This document shows positions 1,478-53,025 of a DNA stretch of 64,000 bases, piece after piece. This DNA comes from the human T2T-CHM13v2.0 reference genome, Homo sapiens. The notes beneath the pieces are model-generated. The model was not told the DNA's origin. It made no database searches and worked only from the letters and a program-made list of their open reading frames with translations. Numbering within the stretch: position 1 is the stretch's first letter; every line of letters begins with the position of its first letter. The DNA lies in NCBI RefSeq assembly GCF_009914755.1, contig NC_060925.1; one strand, given 5' to 3'. Position numbers and translations under genes: made by a program.

Positions 1478-2593
1478 GACAGTTCGGTATAGTGCATCCC
1501 TTTCAAAGAGTTGAGCATAGATTTTCTTTACACATCTCATCTTTTAAAAACCTTTACCATTTAGAAGTATTTGTATTATAATGTACTTGCGGCTCATAAA
1601 ATAAAAGCATTGTCACATCATTTTTAATACACATACATTATTGGAAAACATAAAAATTACATCTAATTAGAGAGAAGGACTAAATTCCAAGTAAGTCTGG
1701 GGGAAAGAATAAGTACTCGAAAGTGTATTTACTGAGTCTGTTTTCAAGTGAGAGATGCATAAAATTCAAATTTACGAGCAGATAAATACATTTATGCCTA
1801 CCAAGGATTTTTCAATGTATTTGTAACTTTTGCAACCCAGGTTTTAATCCCTGTCTGCTACTATAGGACCTTAAGTTTCCTTTAAATTGTCATCCAATAT
1901 GGCTGAGATGATCCTAGGGTGGGTTATGTTTGTCCAGTACTATGTTATCCTCTGATATTTGCCATTTTCTTCTTCTTCTGCCCAGATCCCCTGAGGTGAG
2001 AAAGTATTTTCCTGACATTCCCACAGCCTGCTGTGTTCATGCAAATATCTCACTGCTGATACTTCTGTGGGCCAGAGGGAGAAGGCTTGAGTTTCAGATT
2101 CTACCACTACAGCAATGGGATGACTGGTTGAGTCAAAGCATCTCCACCCATGCCAGAAGAGAAGAAGTCAGAGAAAAGAACTAAGACAATTGCTGACCTT
2201 ACAACGGTCCTGTCTTCTGATGCCATCACCAGAAATTTGCACACCTCAAGCTACAAAGTGACTCCAAAAGGAGAGTTCCAGTCTCTTTTATGCTGCTCTC
2301 TTTAATATCTTCCCCCCCAGGAAGGAGTGATCTTGATCGACTGGTCATTTTCCAGGTCACTAATTACTCCACATTTTCTATGGGTGGATGCTTTAAAGAA
2401 AATAAAAATGAAAGCTCTTCTCATCTTAATTTATTCTTTCCTTCCACTCGACCAGACTAGTAGCTGAGGTAGTGCAGCCAAAGAGTCACTTAGTCACTCT
2501 CCCTCTCCTTGGATGCTTTTTTGACCCATTTGGCATCTAGACCAGAGTTACTGCCAATTGGAATCTAGGCAGGAAGGCAAAGACTTGCTTTTA

Positions 2594-2675
2594 TTAGGTT
2601 GGTGCAAAAGTCACTGCAGTCTTCGCCATTACTTTTAAATGGCAAAAACCGCAATAAACTTTTGCACCAACCTAA
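2594..2675. mobile_element. MADE1 (Hsmar1-derived MITE), full length
   Basis: ttaggttggtgcaaaagt...acttttgcaccaacctaa terminal inverted repeats; TA duplication at 2592-2593 and 2676-2677. Confidence 0.95.
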
Positions 2676-3077
2676 TAGCTCTTTTCTCTGACTTCTTCTC
2701 TTCTGGCGTTGGTGGAGATGCTTTGACTCAACCAGTCATCCCATTATCGTAGTGGTAGAATCTGAAGCTCAAGTTTGGATTGACAAGATCCTCTGGCCCT
2801 TGTACATTCAGGTGAACATGGGTATAATTTAGCTGAGGTAAAGGGGGCTTGATGACGTATTGCCTAGTTTACAACAGATCTACATTAGCACTCAGACACA
2901 AAGCCTCAGTTAGTAATATTTGTGTCATCAGCATTTGTTTTATGTTCGTATTAAAACTAAGAGGAGAGATAATCCAGCTATGTTACTTCAGGTTCTCCAA
3001 AGGGCAGACTGTTTAAGACAGTATTAAGCTTACAAGGATTTTGTTAGAAAAAAATGCCTGCATGAAGAAATGGTGAA

Positions 3078-3367
3078 GGCCAGGTGCAGTGGCTCACACC
3101 TGTAATCCCAGTTCTTTGAAAGGCCAAAGTAGCAGGATTGCTTAAGCCCAGGAGTTTGAGAACAGCCTGGGCAACATAGCAAGACTTCATTTCTACCAAA
3201 AGTCTTAAAAAATTAGCCAGATGTGGGGGGATGCACTTGTAGTCATAGCTACTCAGGAGGCTGAGGTTGGAGGATGGTTTGAGCCCAGGAGTTCAAGGCT
3301 GGAGTAAGCTATGATGATGTCACTGCACTCCAGCCTGGATGACAGTGAGATCCTGTCTCTAAAAAAG
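3078..3367 (+). mobile_element. AluJ
   Basis: Full dimer with J-type ggattgcttaagcccaggagtttgag and gagcccaggagttcaaggctg. Confidence 0.9.
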
Positions 3368-3480
3368 AAAGAAAGAAGGAAGGAAGGAAGGAAGGAAGGA
3401 AGGAAGGAAGGAAGGAATGAATCAAGGAAGGAAGGAAGGAAGGAAGGAAGGAATGAATCAAGGAAGGAAGAAAGGAAGGG
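3368..3480 (+). repeat. Compound (GGAA)n microsatellite derived from the Alu tail
   Basis: (GGAA)10 TGAATCAA (GGAA)7 TGAATCAA (GGAA)2 starting at 3378. Confidence 0.95.
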
Positions 3481-9959: not shown

Positions 9960-10692
9960 TAATAATAATAACTAATATTTTTCAAGTCTTATGATATGCT
10001 AGGCACCACTTGGTGTTTTATATATATTCTTATTTATATAAAAATATATATTATATTCTTATTTATATAAAAATATATATTATATTCTTATTTATATAAA
10101 AATATATATTATATTCTTATTTATATAAAAATATATATTATATTCTTATTTATATAAAAATATATATTATATTCTTATTTATATAAAAATATATATTATA
10201 TTCTTATTTATATAAAAATATATATTATATTCTTATTTATATAAAAATATATATTATATTCTTATTTATATAAAAATATATATTATATTCTTATTTATAT
10301 AAAAATATATATTATATTCTTATTTATATAAAAATATATATTATATTCTTATTTATATAAAATATATATTATATTCTTATTTATATAAAATATATATTAT
10401 ATTCTTATTTATATAAAATATATATTATATTCTTATTTATATAAAAATATATATTATATTCTTATTTATATATTCTTTCTTCTTAAAGAATTTACATATT
10501 CTTATTTATATATTAATATATATATATATATTCTTCATTCAAATGCACAGCAACTTTATGAAGTCAGTTTTAAAACTGTTTGTAGCTTCAACACAAGGAG
10601 ACTGAATCAGAGTACGAAGTACCTTGTTCAAACTCCTACCACCAGAATTCCAACCTGAGAGTCTAACTTAAAGCTTGACATGTAAACACTAC
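9960..10692 (-). mobile_element. MIR split by a minisatellite
   Basis: aataataataactaatattt...atgctaggcacc before the array; cacagcaactttatgaagt...gagactgaatcagag...gtctaacttaaagc after it. Confidence 0.55.
10021..10530. repeat. AT-rich minisatellite, 29-bp unit TTCTTATTTATATAAAAATATATATTATA, about 15 copies plus a degenerate tail
   Basis: Near-perfect tandem copies from about 10023 to 10470; a few units are 28 bp (one A fewer). Confidence 0.97.
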
Positions 10693-26620: not shown

Positions 26621-27512
26621 GAAAGGATAATTTATTTGACCATTAAAAAAAAATGAACATTGAAGCCATCCAGGTACTCCAAACATAGACACTTGAGAAA
26701 GCATTTTATTTTGCTATATAATTATTATCATTACGAATGGTAAACTTAAAACTGCTGTGATCAAATTTAATGACAGATGTCCTATATAAAAATGCAGAGG
26801 CAAACCACTTAAGAAAAACCATGATATGCATAGGCTTTTACTTGCAAAGTCAGATGAGTAAACATGAGGCAATTAATGGGCCATGACTGTAAGTCTAACC
26901 ACGCAGTTCATGCACATAGAAAGTGGGTAAAGTTTTAAAGTGGAAATTGAATTGGGAAAATCAATCTACTATATGACTGTCATGAGTGTTCTGATAGTTA
27001 TATAGTTATGTATATATTATTTTCTTCGTATTTAGCATGTTACATAGCAAGAGGCAGAATTATATGAGCAAATCCTCACCCAGAGAAGCAGAAAGCTAAA
27101 ATTATCTGGTGTTTCTATCCCACTTTGACCAGAACATCTAACAAAAGTTGTAAAGAACACATATTTGTAAGTGTGTTATTGTCAATGGCATGGGTGCTGA
27201 GGTCCTACTTTATGTCTTTTTTTCACTCACACTACAACAGTAGGAAGGTGAGCTAACCTAGATGATGATACTGTACGTTTGATGGACAAAATAGTTTTGC
27301 CTTTTCTAAAACATGCTCTGTTTATAGCATACAAAAGATAGAGAAGCATTATTCTTGTTTAAACCAGAGTCTTTTTCATTGAAATCTCATCACATGATAT
27401 AAATTGAATAAATAAACCAGAAGATGCTGACGAATTGGAAAACTTAAAGAACAATAGTACTATTTTGAACACATCTTTCAAAGATGGAATATCTGTTGAT
27501 TGTGACAGCAAA

Positions 27513-27622
27513 AAGCGGGGCCACAGTTGCATTCATTGTTCAGTGAGCTTGTCCACACAGTTCAACCCACCGACAGCAATGAATGTTGATTGTGACCTTT
27601 TAAAAAATAATCTCTGCACAGG
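27513..27622 (-). ncRNA. MIR181B1: microRNA precursor mir-181b-1; miR-181b-5p at 27565-27587, miR-181b-3p at 27527-27547
   Basis: The minus strand reads AACAUUCAUUGCUGUCGGUGGGU (miR-181b-5p), a loop, then CUCACUGAACAAUGAAUGCAA (3p); the arms are complementary and form a hairpin. Confidence 0.99.
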
Positions 27623-27683
27623 GAAGAGAAAGTCCTGGTGTGTCCACCTTTGGTTTCCTGTCTTCAGCGAATTCTGAGCACCA

Positions 27684-27793
27684 TGGAGTAGATGATGGTT
27701 AGCCATAGGGTACAATCAACGGTCGATGGTTTTGATTTTAATTCCAAACTCACCGACAGCGTTGAATGTTCACTGAAGCAACCTCAAAACTCA
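27684..27793 (-). ncRNA. MIR181A1: microRNA precursor mir-181a-1 (formerly mir-213); miR-181a-5p at 27748-27770, miR-181a-3p at 27709-27730
   Basis: The minus strand reads AACAUUCAACGCUGUCGGUGAGU (5p), loop UUGGAAUUAAAAUCAAA, then ACCAUCGACCGUUGAUUGUACC (3p). The 3p arm identifies the a-1 paralogue rather than a-2. Confidence 0.99.
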
Positions 27794-30700
27794 GAATTCT
27801 ACTCACTTTACAGTATCTGTAAGTATCTGAAGGGGATGGGAGACAGAAACAACAGTACCTTTAGTCATATATTTTATGCATTTTTATGCCATTTCAAAAG
27901 ACTACAAAAGAAGACAAATAAGAAGCATGATTCTTCCAACAAAGAGTTTGGCAAACCTCCACATCACATTGTATGAGAGAAAAGGATCGGTTTCATTAAG
28001 CAAAAACATGGCCGATATTGGGCTAGTTCCAGAGATGGAATTATCTCACTGTTAAAGACAGGGACAATTTGTTATTCAAAGTACTTTGTGGTATAAAATC
28101 CAAACAATATCTTATAATTTAAATATTGTTACGCTTATAGTAAGCAAGCATTATGTATATAGCTTATACAGAAATTAAACAGAATTACCTTAGATTTCCT
28201 CAAATTGGCATTGATGATATCATTTATATTTACATTATATATTTACTATATTTTATTCTAAAATAAGGTTTTAAAATTAGTATAACTTCCTAAGAACAAT
28301 CTTATTTAGAAAATGCTGAACAAATTATAAGTGAAGAAACCAGCTCAATACATTTTTCTTAGTTTATGGCACAAAGAGTTCATGAATACAGTGAAAGGTA
28401 AATACAATCTATGTATGCTACAAAACCGTTCATTTCCTATTATTTTAAATAACATCTAACATCTAACATCTCTTTATGGGTAGATGGGTGAGGGATTCTT
28501 TTCATAGTCTTATTTTCTAAGACTGTTTTATCATTAATGCTTATTTTAAAATTATTATGAACTCTACTGAATTTATTTTTAGAGCCATTTTCAATAATTT
28601 TCTACCATCAATTAAAACAAAAGTCACCTTGGATGTATCTAAACCAGAATAGAAAGTCATTATTTCACACATTTAAGTTGCATCTAATATGGTTATAGAG
28701 TAATTATCTGTAGGAGGGACAACCCACAATAATTTGGAATGCTACTTTGAAGGTGATAATGGTCTATTCAAGTCAAGGCAATTACTCTCGAAATGTTAGT
28801 GAAATATGTATCCCAAATTTTTACACATTCTTACATTTCAGTCACTTAGAATTATTTTAAAGCCAATAATTGTTTAACCTTTTAGACAAACTATTTACAT
28901 GAAAACTTCAACAGATTTTTTTTGAGAGAAACAGGGACTAGAGATCAACTGGAAGTAAATTTTAAAGTGACAAATAGGCACAGAATATGAAACAGTGATG
29001 TATCTGAATTTTGCATTGTTTAATTCTTTTGAAAGAAGCAAATTTCTCCCACAGAATAAAACCCTAGAAGAATGCTTTATCAGTAGGCATTTCTGTGTTG
29101 CTGCTGGAAAGAATATTATCATGAGACTGAGGATTCATTTGTTTGCATTATCAATTACGACTGAAAGCATATCACTCCTGTTCTGTTGCCTGCCTATTGT
29201 GGTATTAGTGTCAGGTCAATATACAACTGTTTTCAATCATGCCTATTCATCTCTTGCTACATCTGCTAACGTTTGTATAATAGGGATGTTGTGATAAAAG
29301 ACTCCATGCTCTGTATTTTCCCTTAACACAAAATGCATTTGGCCTACCAGTAAGCAAAGCTCTAGGTCAGTTACAAATAATTAAAAGGCATAACTATGTT
29401 ATCTTTTGTTTTCCAAAATATTCTCCTAGAAGTCTTTGGAAGAATACAATTAACTTAATCCTAAAGTTGTTACATTCTTAGAATAAAAATCTTAACTATA
29501 ATTGATTTAACATTAAAATTCTTAAAAATCTTATAATGATTCACTTGAAACAATAGAAGTTACATTAAATGTCTTGTTATTTACACATAAAATAGCAATG
29601 ATAAATAAAGTGATTAATTATTTTTTCTTTCCTTGGGCTAATCATAGTCATAGTTTGTTAAAGATAAAACCTCATATCTTAACAGTTTAAATCCTCCACA
29701 ATGGAAAATAGGATCTCTGTGTTCTTGCTTCCAATTAATCTAATGTCAGAGAAGATAGTAAACTTTAGGCTCTATATTCTAAATTATTTCGAGCAATACA
29801 GAAAAATCGTTCTACTTGTTGGTGCAATTTAGTTTTCTGCTCACTTATATGGTCTTGCAATTACTGTCATGTACCTTCCAATCCTATATCTTTTCCATCT
29901 TTATTTTCACAACTTAATCCTTAGTTATAAATCATTTATCTTTAAAATATTAAGATGCAATGGTACTGAGATTTCACATTTTCTGGCAATTTTTTAGAAC
30001 ACATTGTTCATAATTCCAGAATTCCAAGTTGGTGGTAGCAATATGCATTCTTGCATAGTTTTCCTTGAATGAAAAAAAGTCACAAGCAATAGGTCATTAA
30101 TGCATAAATACTCTCTTATCCCCCTCTTCCTAATTTTGGAGGGCTGTGTGGGTAGGATAAAACCAATCTAATTTGCATCAAAGCCAAATTTATTGTAGCT
30201 TTCATTTCTCATCCCTAGGCTTGTGGGAACATTAAGTATTTCAGTTTTGCTTAAGGTTAGTAGGTCATAAATAAACCAAAGCAATTTTTTTGCTTTGTGC
30301 AAGAGGGTCACGAAATACATGAAATACCACTTTTAAACAAAGCAAACCCTAACATGAATTGACAGAGGAACATAAAAAAGTAGTGCAATGTGCCTCAGTA
30401 AAAAGCCATAGGGATTTGGGATGCTGAAGTTGTCTGTTTTAGGAATAGATTATATATCTTGTTTGATGATCTGTATTTAATTTAAGTGACTGCCTCTGCC
30501 AGTCCTTCCAGAGGGCAAGTGTGTGAAATAGAGCATCTCAATGTCAGTCTCCAGTCCTTTCCTCTGCCTGATGCCTTGACCTAAATTGGGCATGTGGGCA
30601 TTGATCTGGACAAATGAAAGAGACTGAGTCTTTGCTGCCATGCACGTTTTATCCTTAGTTCTACCTAGTTTTAAAATCTGATGAGCAGCATGTATGCATA

Positions 30701-42422: not shown

Positions 42423-42610
42423 GGGAGGAATGGAAGGAAGAAAGAAAGGAAAAGTAGGGAAGAGAAGAGAAGGGAGGGAAATGAAAGAGAGGAAAAGGAA
42501 GGGAAGAAAGGAAGTAAGAAAAGAAAGGAAAGAGGAAGGAAGGAAGGAAGGAAAAAAGGAGAGAAAGAGGGAGAGAGAAAGAGGGAGAGAGAAAGAGGAA
42601 GAGAAAGACA
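42423..42610 (+). repeat. GA-rich polypurine low-complexity tract
   Basis: About 190 bp of almost exclusively A/G. Confidence 0.9.
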
Positions 42611-52927: not shown

Positions 52928-52942
52928 CTATCTATCTGTCTG

Positions 52943-52989
<47 letters not shown>

Positions 52990-53025
52990 GTCATTTATCT
53001 ATCTGTCTATTGGCTTATCTATCAA
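52928..53025. repeat. (TCTA)n / (TCTG)n tetranucleotide STR
   Basis: Visible run of about 11 TCTA units with TCTG variants. Confidence 0.95.

What the first reader, a model, noticed from the sequence alone, without database searches (positions are those of the whole stretch)
27513..27793. Bicistronic miR-181a-1 / miR-181b-1 microRNA cluster on the minus strand
Seen: two hairpins whose 5p arms start 183 nt apart and share the seed ACAUUCA, consistent with an ancient tandem duplication. They are the only identifiable genes in 64 kb and are missed by the ORF track. Established: miR-181a/b tune T-cell receptor sensitivity by repressing phosphatases such as DUSP5/6, PTPN22 and SHP2, and act in thymocyte/NKT development. 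This is the biological core of the window, but it is a known system, not a new one.
Basis: partly seen in the sequence, partly recalled or inferred. Interest (0 to 1): 0.8.

Follow-up and report, generated by a model that had tools for sequence, protein, structure and literature searches.

The report
Human miR-181a-1/miR-181b-1 microRNA gene pair

Summary
On the minus strand, two hairpins match Rfam mir-181 (RF00076) at 80.0 and 67.5 bits against a cut-off of 45.5. They are the only 2 matches in the 64 kb that reach a curated threshold. The two 5p arms start at 27770 and 27587, 183 nt apart, and share the seed ACAUUCA.

The genome holds six mir-181 hairpins in three pairs, on contigs 1, 9 and 19. 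The three upstream members group together at 97/97 support. So the tandem duplication came before the pairs multiplied.

I add two points.
- The downstream hairpin looks like a poor Microprocessor substrate, which fits published "cluster assistance" of miR-181b. The same asymmetry appears in all three paralogous pairs.
- Both 5p sequences also occur exactly on contig 9.

Verdict: already known, low interest.

The parts
27684..27793 (-). MIR181A1 precursor span (upstream hairpin A; Rfam core 27699-27781)
   Evidence: RF00076 80.0 bits, full model; MFE -35.9 kcal/mol, z -4.37; hub RefSeq table
27748..27770 (-). miR-181a-5p guide arm, 23 nt, seed ACAUUCA at positions 2-8
   Evidence: named mir-181a-2//mir-181a-1-5p in PMC5017767; exact copy also on contig 9
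27709..27730 (-). miR-181a-1-3p arm, 22 nt, unique to this locus
   Evidence: single exact genome match
27599..27698 (-). 100-nt spacer between the two Rfam hairpin cores
   Evidence: Coordinates; no similarity to the paralogous clusters outside the hairpins within +/-1.5 kb
27513..27622 (-). MIR181B1 precursor span (downstream hairpin B; Rfam core 27517-27598)
   Evidence: RF00076 67.5 bits, full model; MFE -33.2 kcal/mol, z -2.03; hub RefSeq table
27565..27587 (-). miR-181b-5p guide arm, 23 nt, same seed; differs from 181a-5p at positions 9, 10, 21
   Evidence: named mir-181b-1//mir-181b-2-5p in PMC5017767; exact copy also on contig 9
27527..27547 (-). miR-181b-1-3p arm, 21 nt, unique to this locus
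   Evidence: single exact genome match
27669..27799 (-). Perfect 10-bp inverted repeat (27669-27678 / 27790-27799) that extends the basal stem of hairpin A
   Evidence: the repeat finder pair I3, 100% complementary; paired in the MFE structures
27494..27596 (-). Exact 13-nt direct repeat (27584-27596 and 27494-27506) bracketing hairpin B; meaning unknown
   Evidence: Only 2 matches in 64 kb at up to 1 mismatch, 0.18 expected; family D3; predicted alternative pairing is negligible

Best explanation
The region holds the human MIR181A1 and MIR181B1 genes: two paralogous microRNA hairpins 183 nt apart on the minus strand. They lie in an intron of the host lncRNA MIR181A1HG and are transcribed as one primary transcript from a promoter outside the window. 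Microprocessor (DROSHA/DGCR8) cuts out each hairpin, and Dicer releases duplexes whose 5p arms (miR-181a-5p, miR-181b-5p) are the guides. Both guides carry the seed ACAUUCA and repress overlapping targets. In thymocytes and T cells these include the phosphatases SHP-2, PTPN22, DUSP5 and DUSP6, so TCR sensitivity rises, and iNKT/MAIT development depends on this. The two hairpins are probably not equivalent substrates. Upstream hairpin A has a long, mostly paired basal stem and a downstream CNNC at the expected distance, and it acts as helper. Downstream hairpin B has a 5x4-nt internal loop at the cleavage site above a 7-bp lower stem, and its cleavage is helped in cis by hairpin A through ERH and SAFB1/2 (cluster assistance). 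Shown here: identity, strand, geometry, paralogy and the predicted structural asymmetry. Taken from print: targets, phenotypes and ERH/SAFB2 dependence. Inferred: that hairpin A is the helper at this endogenous locus.
For: Family and strand: RF00076 at 80.0 and 67.5 bits versus a 45.5 cut-off; the plus strand scores 33.4 and 28.6. Hairpin folds. Arms, seed, three 5p differences and 183-nt spacing. Names of the 23-mers in print. Six family hairpins in three pairs on contigs 1, 9 and 19, with 5p-start spacings of 183, 1245 and 185 nt. Selection on the hairpin: among the six paralogs, the a/b-defining 5p positions 9 and 10 are compensated on the 3p arm (AU:3/UA:3; CG:3/UA:2/UG:1), and 3 of 20 consensus pairs carry double changes. 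Asymmetry: hairpin A has 10 of 13 lower-stem positions paired, a 1x1 loop at the cut and a CNNC at +18. Hairpin B has 7 of 13 paired, a 5x4 loop and CNNC only at +7 and +9. The inferred 3p cut equals the RefSeq arm end in both hairpins. Print, passages only: miR-181b falls in Safb1/2 knock-out cells. It also falls when the neighbouring hairpin is mutated, and a lower-stem swap rescues it (10.1101/858647). After ERH knock-down, pri-miR-181b-1 rises and mature miR-181b falls (PMC7641749). The helper/recipient labelling is used in 10.1101/2025.09.23.678008. Targets and iNKT/MAIT loss: PMC7503384. One pri-miR-181a/b1 transcript with a distant TSS and a YY1-regulated enhancer, and the chromosome-1 gene predominant in T cells: PMC6076328.
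Against: No expression data can be consulted here, so transcription and cleavage at this locus rest on the annotation and on print. Hairpin B's folding energy is barely better than shuffles (z -2.03, 7 of 200 as good). Its lower stem is nonetheless predicted to be stable (pair probabilities 0.92-0.99), so 'suboptimal' rests on the loop at the cut and the missing CNNC. The required CNNC distance of 16-18 nt is recalled, not taken from a call. The passages of 10.1101/858647 do not say whether the cloned miR-181a_181b construct was the chromosome-1 or chromosome-9 pair, and its supplements could not be opened. Hairpin A is not flawless either: pri-mir-181a-1 is used in PMC7049713 as an example whose asymmetric internal loop in the lower stem influences single-strand cleavage. 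[quoted passage not shown]
Confidence: 0.96

Rival explanations
1. The locus is the miR-181a-1/b-1 pair, but the two hairpins are processed independently. On this reading the structural asymmetry has no consequence here, and the published cluster assistance applies to the chromosome-9 pair or only to over-expression constructs.
For: The lower stem of hairpin B is predicted to be stable (0.92-0.99). The construct's locus is not stated in the passages seen. Validation for miR-181b was on ectopic constructs (10.1101/2025.09.23.678008 passage). The review sees no differential regulation of a and b.
Against: PMC7641749 names pri-miR-181b-1 specifically as accumulating on ERH knock-down while the mature miRNA falls. 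The 183-nt spacing is far inside the 1500-bp window that paper uses to call miRNAs clustered. The loop at the cut and the missing CNNC at 16-18 are seen in 3 of 3 downstream paralogs.
Confidence: 0.15
2. The mature miR-181a/b-5p in a given tissue comes mainly from the contig-9 pair, and this locus contributes little. It would then not be the 'biological core' in that tissue.
For: Both 5p 23-mers are identical at the two loci, so standard 5p counts cannot assign the source.
Against: PMC6076328 states that the Chr1q32.1 gene is the one predominantly expressed in T cells. [quoted passage not shown]
Confidence: 0.1
3. The hairpins are chance or decayed look-alikes (pseudo-miRNAs), or the functional strand is the plus strand.
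For: The plus strand also forms hairpins (MFE -94.7 kcal/mol), and it gives weak mir-181 matches.
Against: There are full-length matches far above the cut-off on the minus strand only. The mature sequences are identical to those named in print. The plus-strand z-score is -1.53 versus -3.60. Compensatory changes keep the hairpin among paralogs.
Confidence: 0.01

Closest known systems
hsa-mir-181a-1 / hsa-mir-181b-1 (RefSeq MIR181A1, MIR181B1; Rfam RF00076)
   Same: Everything tested agrees: coordinates, strand, hairpins, mature arms, seed, spacing and chromosome (hub table).
   Different: Nothing. This is that locus.
Paralogous pairs on contig 9 (miR-181a-2/b-2) and contig 19 (miR-181c/d); the names are recalled and also given in PMC7503384
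   Same: The order is the same, with an a/c-type hairpin upstream and a b/d-type downstream. The 5p arms on contig 9 are identical. The same upstream-good/downstream-poor structural asymmetry is seen.
   Different: Spacing is 1245 nt on contig 9 and 185 nt on contig 19, versus 183 nt here. The 3p arms differ. There is no similarity outside the hairpins.
Cluster-assistance pairs miR-16-1/miR-15a and miR-144/miR-451
   Same: An optimal helper hairpin next to a suboptimal recipient on one transcript, with dependence on ERH and SAFB1/2. miR-181b is listed among recipients.
   Different: Here helper and recipient are paralogs with the same seed, so assistance would alter the dose of one target set rather than couple two different miRNAs. 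The predicted defect is an internal loop at the cut and a missing CNNC. [quoted passage not shown] The short miR-451 stem is recalled, not from a call.

Membership tests
mir-181 microRNA precursor family (Rfam RF00076) | Covariance-model score at or above the curated gathering score, over the full model | tested here: met
   80.0 and 67.5 bits versus 45.5, model positions 1-83/83 for both
mir-181 microRNA precursor family (Rfam RF00076) | Seed ACAUUCA at positions 2-8 of the 5p arm; mature sequence equal to those named miR-181a-5p and miR-181b-5p | tested here: met
   both 23-mers are listed under those names in PMC5017767
mir-181 microRNA precursor family (Rfam RF00076) | Stable hairpin with arms paired and a 2-nt 3' offset between the annotated arm ends | tested here: met
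   18 of 23 5p positions are paired in both hairpins. The 3p cut inferred from the structure with a 2-nt offset equals the RefSeq arm end in both (indices 92 and 91). These are predicted structures only.
mir-181 microRNA precursor family (Rfam RF00076) | Discrete small RNAs from both arms in cells, dependent on DROSHA and DICER | not testable with these tools
   No read data are available. Print reports abundant miR-181a/b, but 5p reads are shared with contig 9.
miR-181a/b-1 locus, as opposed to a/b-2 | Chromosome 1 location and locus-specific 3p arms | tested here: met
   Contig 1; the 3p 22-mer and 21-mer each occur once in the genome, here; chromosome assignment in PMC7503384
Cluster-assistance recipient (hairpin B) | A neighbouring canonical hairpin on the same strand and transcript within about 1.5 kb | tested here: met
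   183 nt between 5p starts and a 100-nt spacer; the 1500-bp criterion comes from PMC7641749
Cluster-assistance recipient (hairpin B) | Suboptimal Microprocessor substrate features | tested here: inconclusive
   Predicted 5x4 loop at the cut, 7 of 13 lower-stem positions paired, no CNNC at 16-18 and no basal UG. Hairpin A has 10 of 13 paired and a CNNC at +18. This is prediction only. The lower stem itself is stable, and the motif distances are recalled.
Cluster-assistance recipient (hairpin B) | Mature level falls when the helper hairpin, ERH or SAFB1/2 is removed | not testable with these tools
   Reported in print for miR-181b constructs and for pri-miR-181b-1. It has not been shown by helper deletion at the endogenous locus, according to the passage.

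The most novel reading that the evidence does not exclude
The helper/recipient arrangement may be ancestral to the whole mir-181 family and not peculiar to this pair. In all 3 of 3 human pairs the upstream hairpin has 10-13 of 13 lower-stem positions paired, only a 1-2-nt loop at the cut, and a CNNC 17-18 nt after it. In all 3 of 3 pairs the downstream hairpin has a 4-5 x 3-5-nt internal loop at the cut, 7-8 of 13 positions paired, and no CNNC at 16-18. If so, a deliberately poor downstream hairpin has been kept since before the pairs multiplied. In that case miR-181b-2 (1245 nt from its helper) and miR-181d would also depend on ERH/SAFB. No paper in the searched library combines 'cluster assistance' with 'miR-181d' (0 papers). 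A smaller oddity: an exact 13-nt direct repeat brackets hairpin B and might be a protein-binding or refolding element, although predicted refolding is negligible.
Probability: 0.4. Interest if true: 0.3.

Novelty: already known. Interest (0 to 1): 0.1.

Why it matters
The locus matters biologically. It sets T-cell receptor sensitivity, is needed for iNKT/MAIT cell development, and its decline contributes to T-cell ageing (passages). All of that is already in print, so confirming it adds no discovery. The practical gain is for anyone measuring this locus: the guide (5p) sequences are shared with chromosome 9, and only the 3p arms identify it. The position-conserved asymmetry between upstream and downstream hairpins in all three pairs is a small, testable extension of the cluster-assistance literature.

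Tried and rejected

3. I tested whether the downstream copy of the 13-nt repeat could refold the lower stem of hairpin B. The canonical lower-stem pairs have probabilities of 0.92-0.99 in a 421-nt context, so I rejected this as a thermodynamic switch.

4. I looked for conserved flanks or spacer between the three paralogous pairs. blastn with word size 7 found similarity only inside the hairpins, within about +/-1.5 kb.

5. I looked for other genes in the window. There are 0 tRNAs and 0 of 7 ORFs of 110 aa or more with a Pfam family. The permissive Rfam scan gave 50 rows. Apart from the 4 mir-181 rows (2 per strand), all are below gathering. They are 21 partial Metazoa_SRP matches, short matches to mir-1268, mir-3135, mir-1285, mir-1303 and similar families, and the mir-548-like palindrome. 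The SRP and short miRNA matches lie in or next to stretches the hub lists as masked repeats. I read them as Alu-derived, which is recalled and not tested.

6. PMC10576077 was searched for a distance rule for cluster assistance and for miR-181. The word 'distance' did not occur, and '181' matched only digits in the reference list.

7. The passages of 10.1101/858647 do not state which 181a/181b pair was cloned. bioRxiv supplements are closed, so Table S3 and the oligonucleotide list that might settle it were not seen.

8. Conservation in other vertebrates could not be examined, because no vertebrate genome other than the window's own is held.

Full report
**What is there**

Read on the minus strand, 27400-27900 contains two stretches that begin AACATTCA. 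The first starts at 27770 and the second at 27587, 183 nt apart. The repeat finder reports them as a 29-nt direct repeat, 83% identical, with spacing 183 (family D1).

A scan of the whole window against Rfam at curated thresholds gives exactly 2 matches. Both are to mir-181 (RF00076), both are on the minus strand, and both cover the full model. They lie at 27781-27699 (80.0 bits, E 5.3e-17) and 27598-27517 (67.5 bits, E 2.4e-13), against a gathering score of 45.5. On the plus strand the same places score 33.4 and 28.6 bits, below the cut-off.

The RefSeq precursor spans both fold as hairpins.
- Hairpin A (27793-27684): MFE -35.9 kcal/mol, z -4.37, 0 of 200 shuffles as good.
- Hairpin B (27622-27513): MFE -33.2 kcal/mol, z -2.03, 7 of 200 shuffles as good.
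- The 351-nt span keeps both hairpins, with z -3.60 on the minus strand and -1.53 on the plus strand.

The annotated 5p arms are 23 nt each. They share ACAUUCA at positions 2-8 and differ at positions 9, 10 and 21. The review PMC7503384 states the same three positions (passage).

**Identity**

The two 23-mers appear in 91 papers of the library. In the one paper I opened, PMC5017767, its tables list them as mir-181a-2//mir-181a-1-5p and mir-181b-1//mir-181b-2-5p (passages).

A search of the window's own assembly with RF00076 finds 6 hairpins above the cut-off, in three pairs on contigs 1, 9 and 19. This matches the family organisation given in PMC7503384, which has a/b-1 on chromosome 1, a/b-2 on 9 and c/d on 19. 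The hub's RefSeq table names the two genes MIR181A1 and MIR181B1 inside MIR181A1HG.

**The duplication history**

I aligned the six hairpins with 15-nt flanks. In the hairpin core:
- the three upstream members are 72-77% identical to each other;
- the downstream members are 57-75% identical to each other;
- upstream versus downstream pairs are 52-66% identical.

A maximum-likelihood tree of all 6 rows puts the three upstream members in one clade at 97/97. The contig-19 downstream row has a long branch, so its place is unsure. The tandem duplication therefore came before the pairs multiplied, which supports 'ancient' in a relative sense. No other vertebrate genome is available, so the absolute age was not tested.

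The hairpin itself has been kept by compensation. The consensus structure has 20 pairs, and 3 of them show changes on both sides. These include the two 5p positions that define a versus b: column pair 35/80 is AU in 3 rows and UA in 3, and pair 36/79 is CG in 3, UA in 2 and UG in 1. Outside the hairpins, the three pairs share no detectable similarity within about 1.5 kb.

**How it works**

The following is taken from print, from passages only.
- PMC7503384 reports that miR-181a raises TCR sensitivity and that SHP-2, PTPN22, DUSP5 and DUSP6 were identified as its targets. It also reports that near-complete loss of iNKT and MAIT cells is the most prominent T-cell phenotype of mice lacking miR-181a/b-1.
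- PMC6076328 treats pri-miR-181a/b1 as one transcript. It has a promoter at its TSS and a YY1-regulated intronic enhancer near position 198,904,300 in that paper's coordinates. The paper says the chromosome-1 gene is the one mainly expressed in T cells.
- By the hub's table the host gene runs to window position 106038, so the promoter lies outside this window.

The two hairpins differ as predicted Microprocessor substrates.

| Feature | Hairpin A | Hairpin B |
|---|---|---|
| Lower-stem positions -13..-1 paired | 10 of 13 | 7 of 13 |
| Internal loop at the cut | 1x1 nt | 5x4 nt, above a 7-bp lower stem |
| CNNC after the 3p cut | +12, +15, +18, +21 | +7 and +9 only |
| Other | basal stem extended by a perfect 10-bp inverted repeat (27669-27678 / 27790-27799) | no basal UG |

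That the CNNC should lie 16-18 nt after the cut is recalled. PMC7641749 only names the four motifs.

Published work agrees with this picture.
- 10.1101/858647: miR-181b falls in Safb1/2 double knock-outs. It also falls when the neighbouring hairpin is mutated, and it becomes independent when given the lower stem of miR-26a-2 (passages).
- PMC7641749: pri-miR-181b-1 accumulates and the mature miRNA falls on ERH knock-down.
- 10.1101/2025.09.23.678008: labels miR-181a as helper and miR-181b as recipient. It also notes that validation for miR-181b so far used ectopic constructs.

There are caveats.
- The passages do not say which 181a/181b pair was cloned, and the supplements could not be read.
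- Hairpin B's lower stem is predicted to be stable, with pair probabilities of 0.92-0.99.
- pri-mir-181a-1 is itself used in PMC7049713 as a case where an asymmetric internal loop in the lower stem affects cleavage.
- PMC7503384 sees no differential regulation of a and b, although a is consistently higher.

**Extension to the paralogs**

I folded the same 122-nt frame around all six hairpins.
- All 3 of 3 upstream members have 10-13 of 13 lower-stem positions paired, 1-2-nt loops at the cut, and a CNNC at +17 or +18.
- All 3 of 3 downstream members have 7-8 of 13 paired, loops of 4-5 by 3-5 nt at the cut, and no CNNC at 16-18. The contig-19 member has one at +19, which is borderline.

For the two contig-1 hairpins, the inferred 3p cut equals the RefSeq arm end. 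For the other four, the cut is inferred from the structure only. This suggests the asymmetry is as old as the pair. The library holds no paper with both 'cluster assistance' and 'miR-181d' (0 papers). That search does not cover subscription journals.

**A correction to the proposed test**

Both 5p 23-mers occur exactly twice in the genome, here and on contig 9, so such reads multi-map. The 3p arms at 27709-27730 and 27527-27547 each occur once, and they are the reads that can prove this locus.

**The rest of the window**

- There are 0 tRNAs, and 0 of 7 ORFs of 110 aa or more have a Pfam family.
- GC content is 29-43% in 2-kb bins.
- The permissive Rfam scan (50 rows) adds only sub-threshold matches. 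These are 21 partial Metazoa_SRP matches and short matches to several miRNA families, in or next to the masked repeats. I read them as Alu-derived, from recall.
- The same scan also gives a mir-548-like palindrome at 2592-2677, at 80.9 bits against a cut-off of 90.

So 'the only identifiable genes' is fair, apart from the host lncRNA whose intron this is.

**Verdict**

This is a textbook locus: already known and of low interest. The only additions are the multi-mapping caveat and the position-conserved helper/recipient asymmetry.

Noticed in passing
window 27494-27506 and 27584-27596 (minus strand): An exact 13-nt direct repeat, 90 nt apart, brackets hairpin B. The upstream copy covers the 5' lower stem and the first 4 nt of miR-181b-5p. 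These are the only 2 matches in 64 kb at up to 1 mismatch (0.18 expected). The contig-19 pair has one copy and the contig-9 pair has none.
   Followed up: partly
window 2592-2677 (both strands): A near-perfect palindromic hairpin matches Rfam mir-548 at 80.9 bits on the minus strand and 65.1 on the plus strand, under the cut-off of 90. Its MFE is -60.4 kcal/mol with z -12.5. It is not in the hub's gene table. It is probably a MADE1-type transposon palindrome, which is recalled and not tested.
   Followed up: partly
window 10019-10472: An AT-rich minisatellite with a 29-nt unit, 15.8 copies and 99% matches (score 880), inside a stretch the hub lists as masked.
   Followed up: no
window 27669-27678 and 27790-27799: A perfect 10-bp inverted repeat containing two EcoRI-like GAATTC words clamps the base of hairpin A well below the Drosha cut. 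It gives hairpin A a much longer basal stem than hairpin B.
   Followed up: partly
L001/L003 (contig 9) versus L005/L006 (contig 19) and the window: The spacing between the paired hairpins is 183 nt here and 185 nt on contig 19, but 1245 nt on contig 9, although the contig-9 5p arms are identical to those here.
   Followed up: partly
window 3367-3479, 42423-42608, 52928-53010: Purine-rich and tetranucleotide microsatellites: GAAG x28, an AGGA/GAAA-rich block, and CTAT x21.
   Followed up: no
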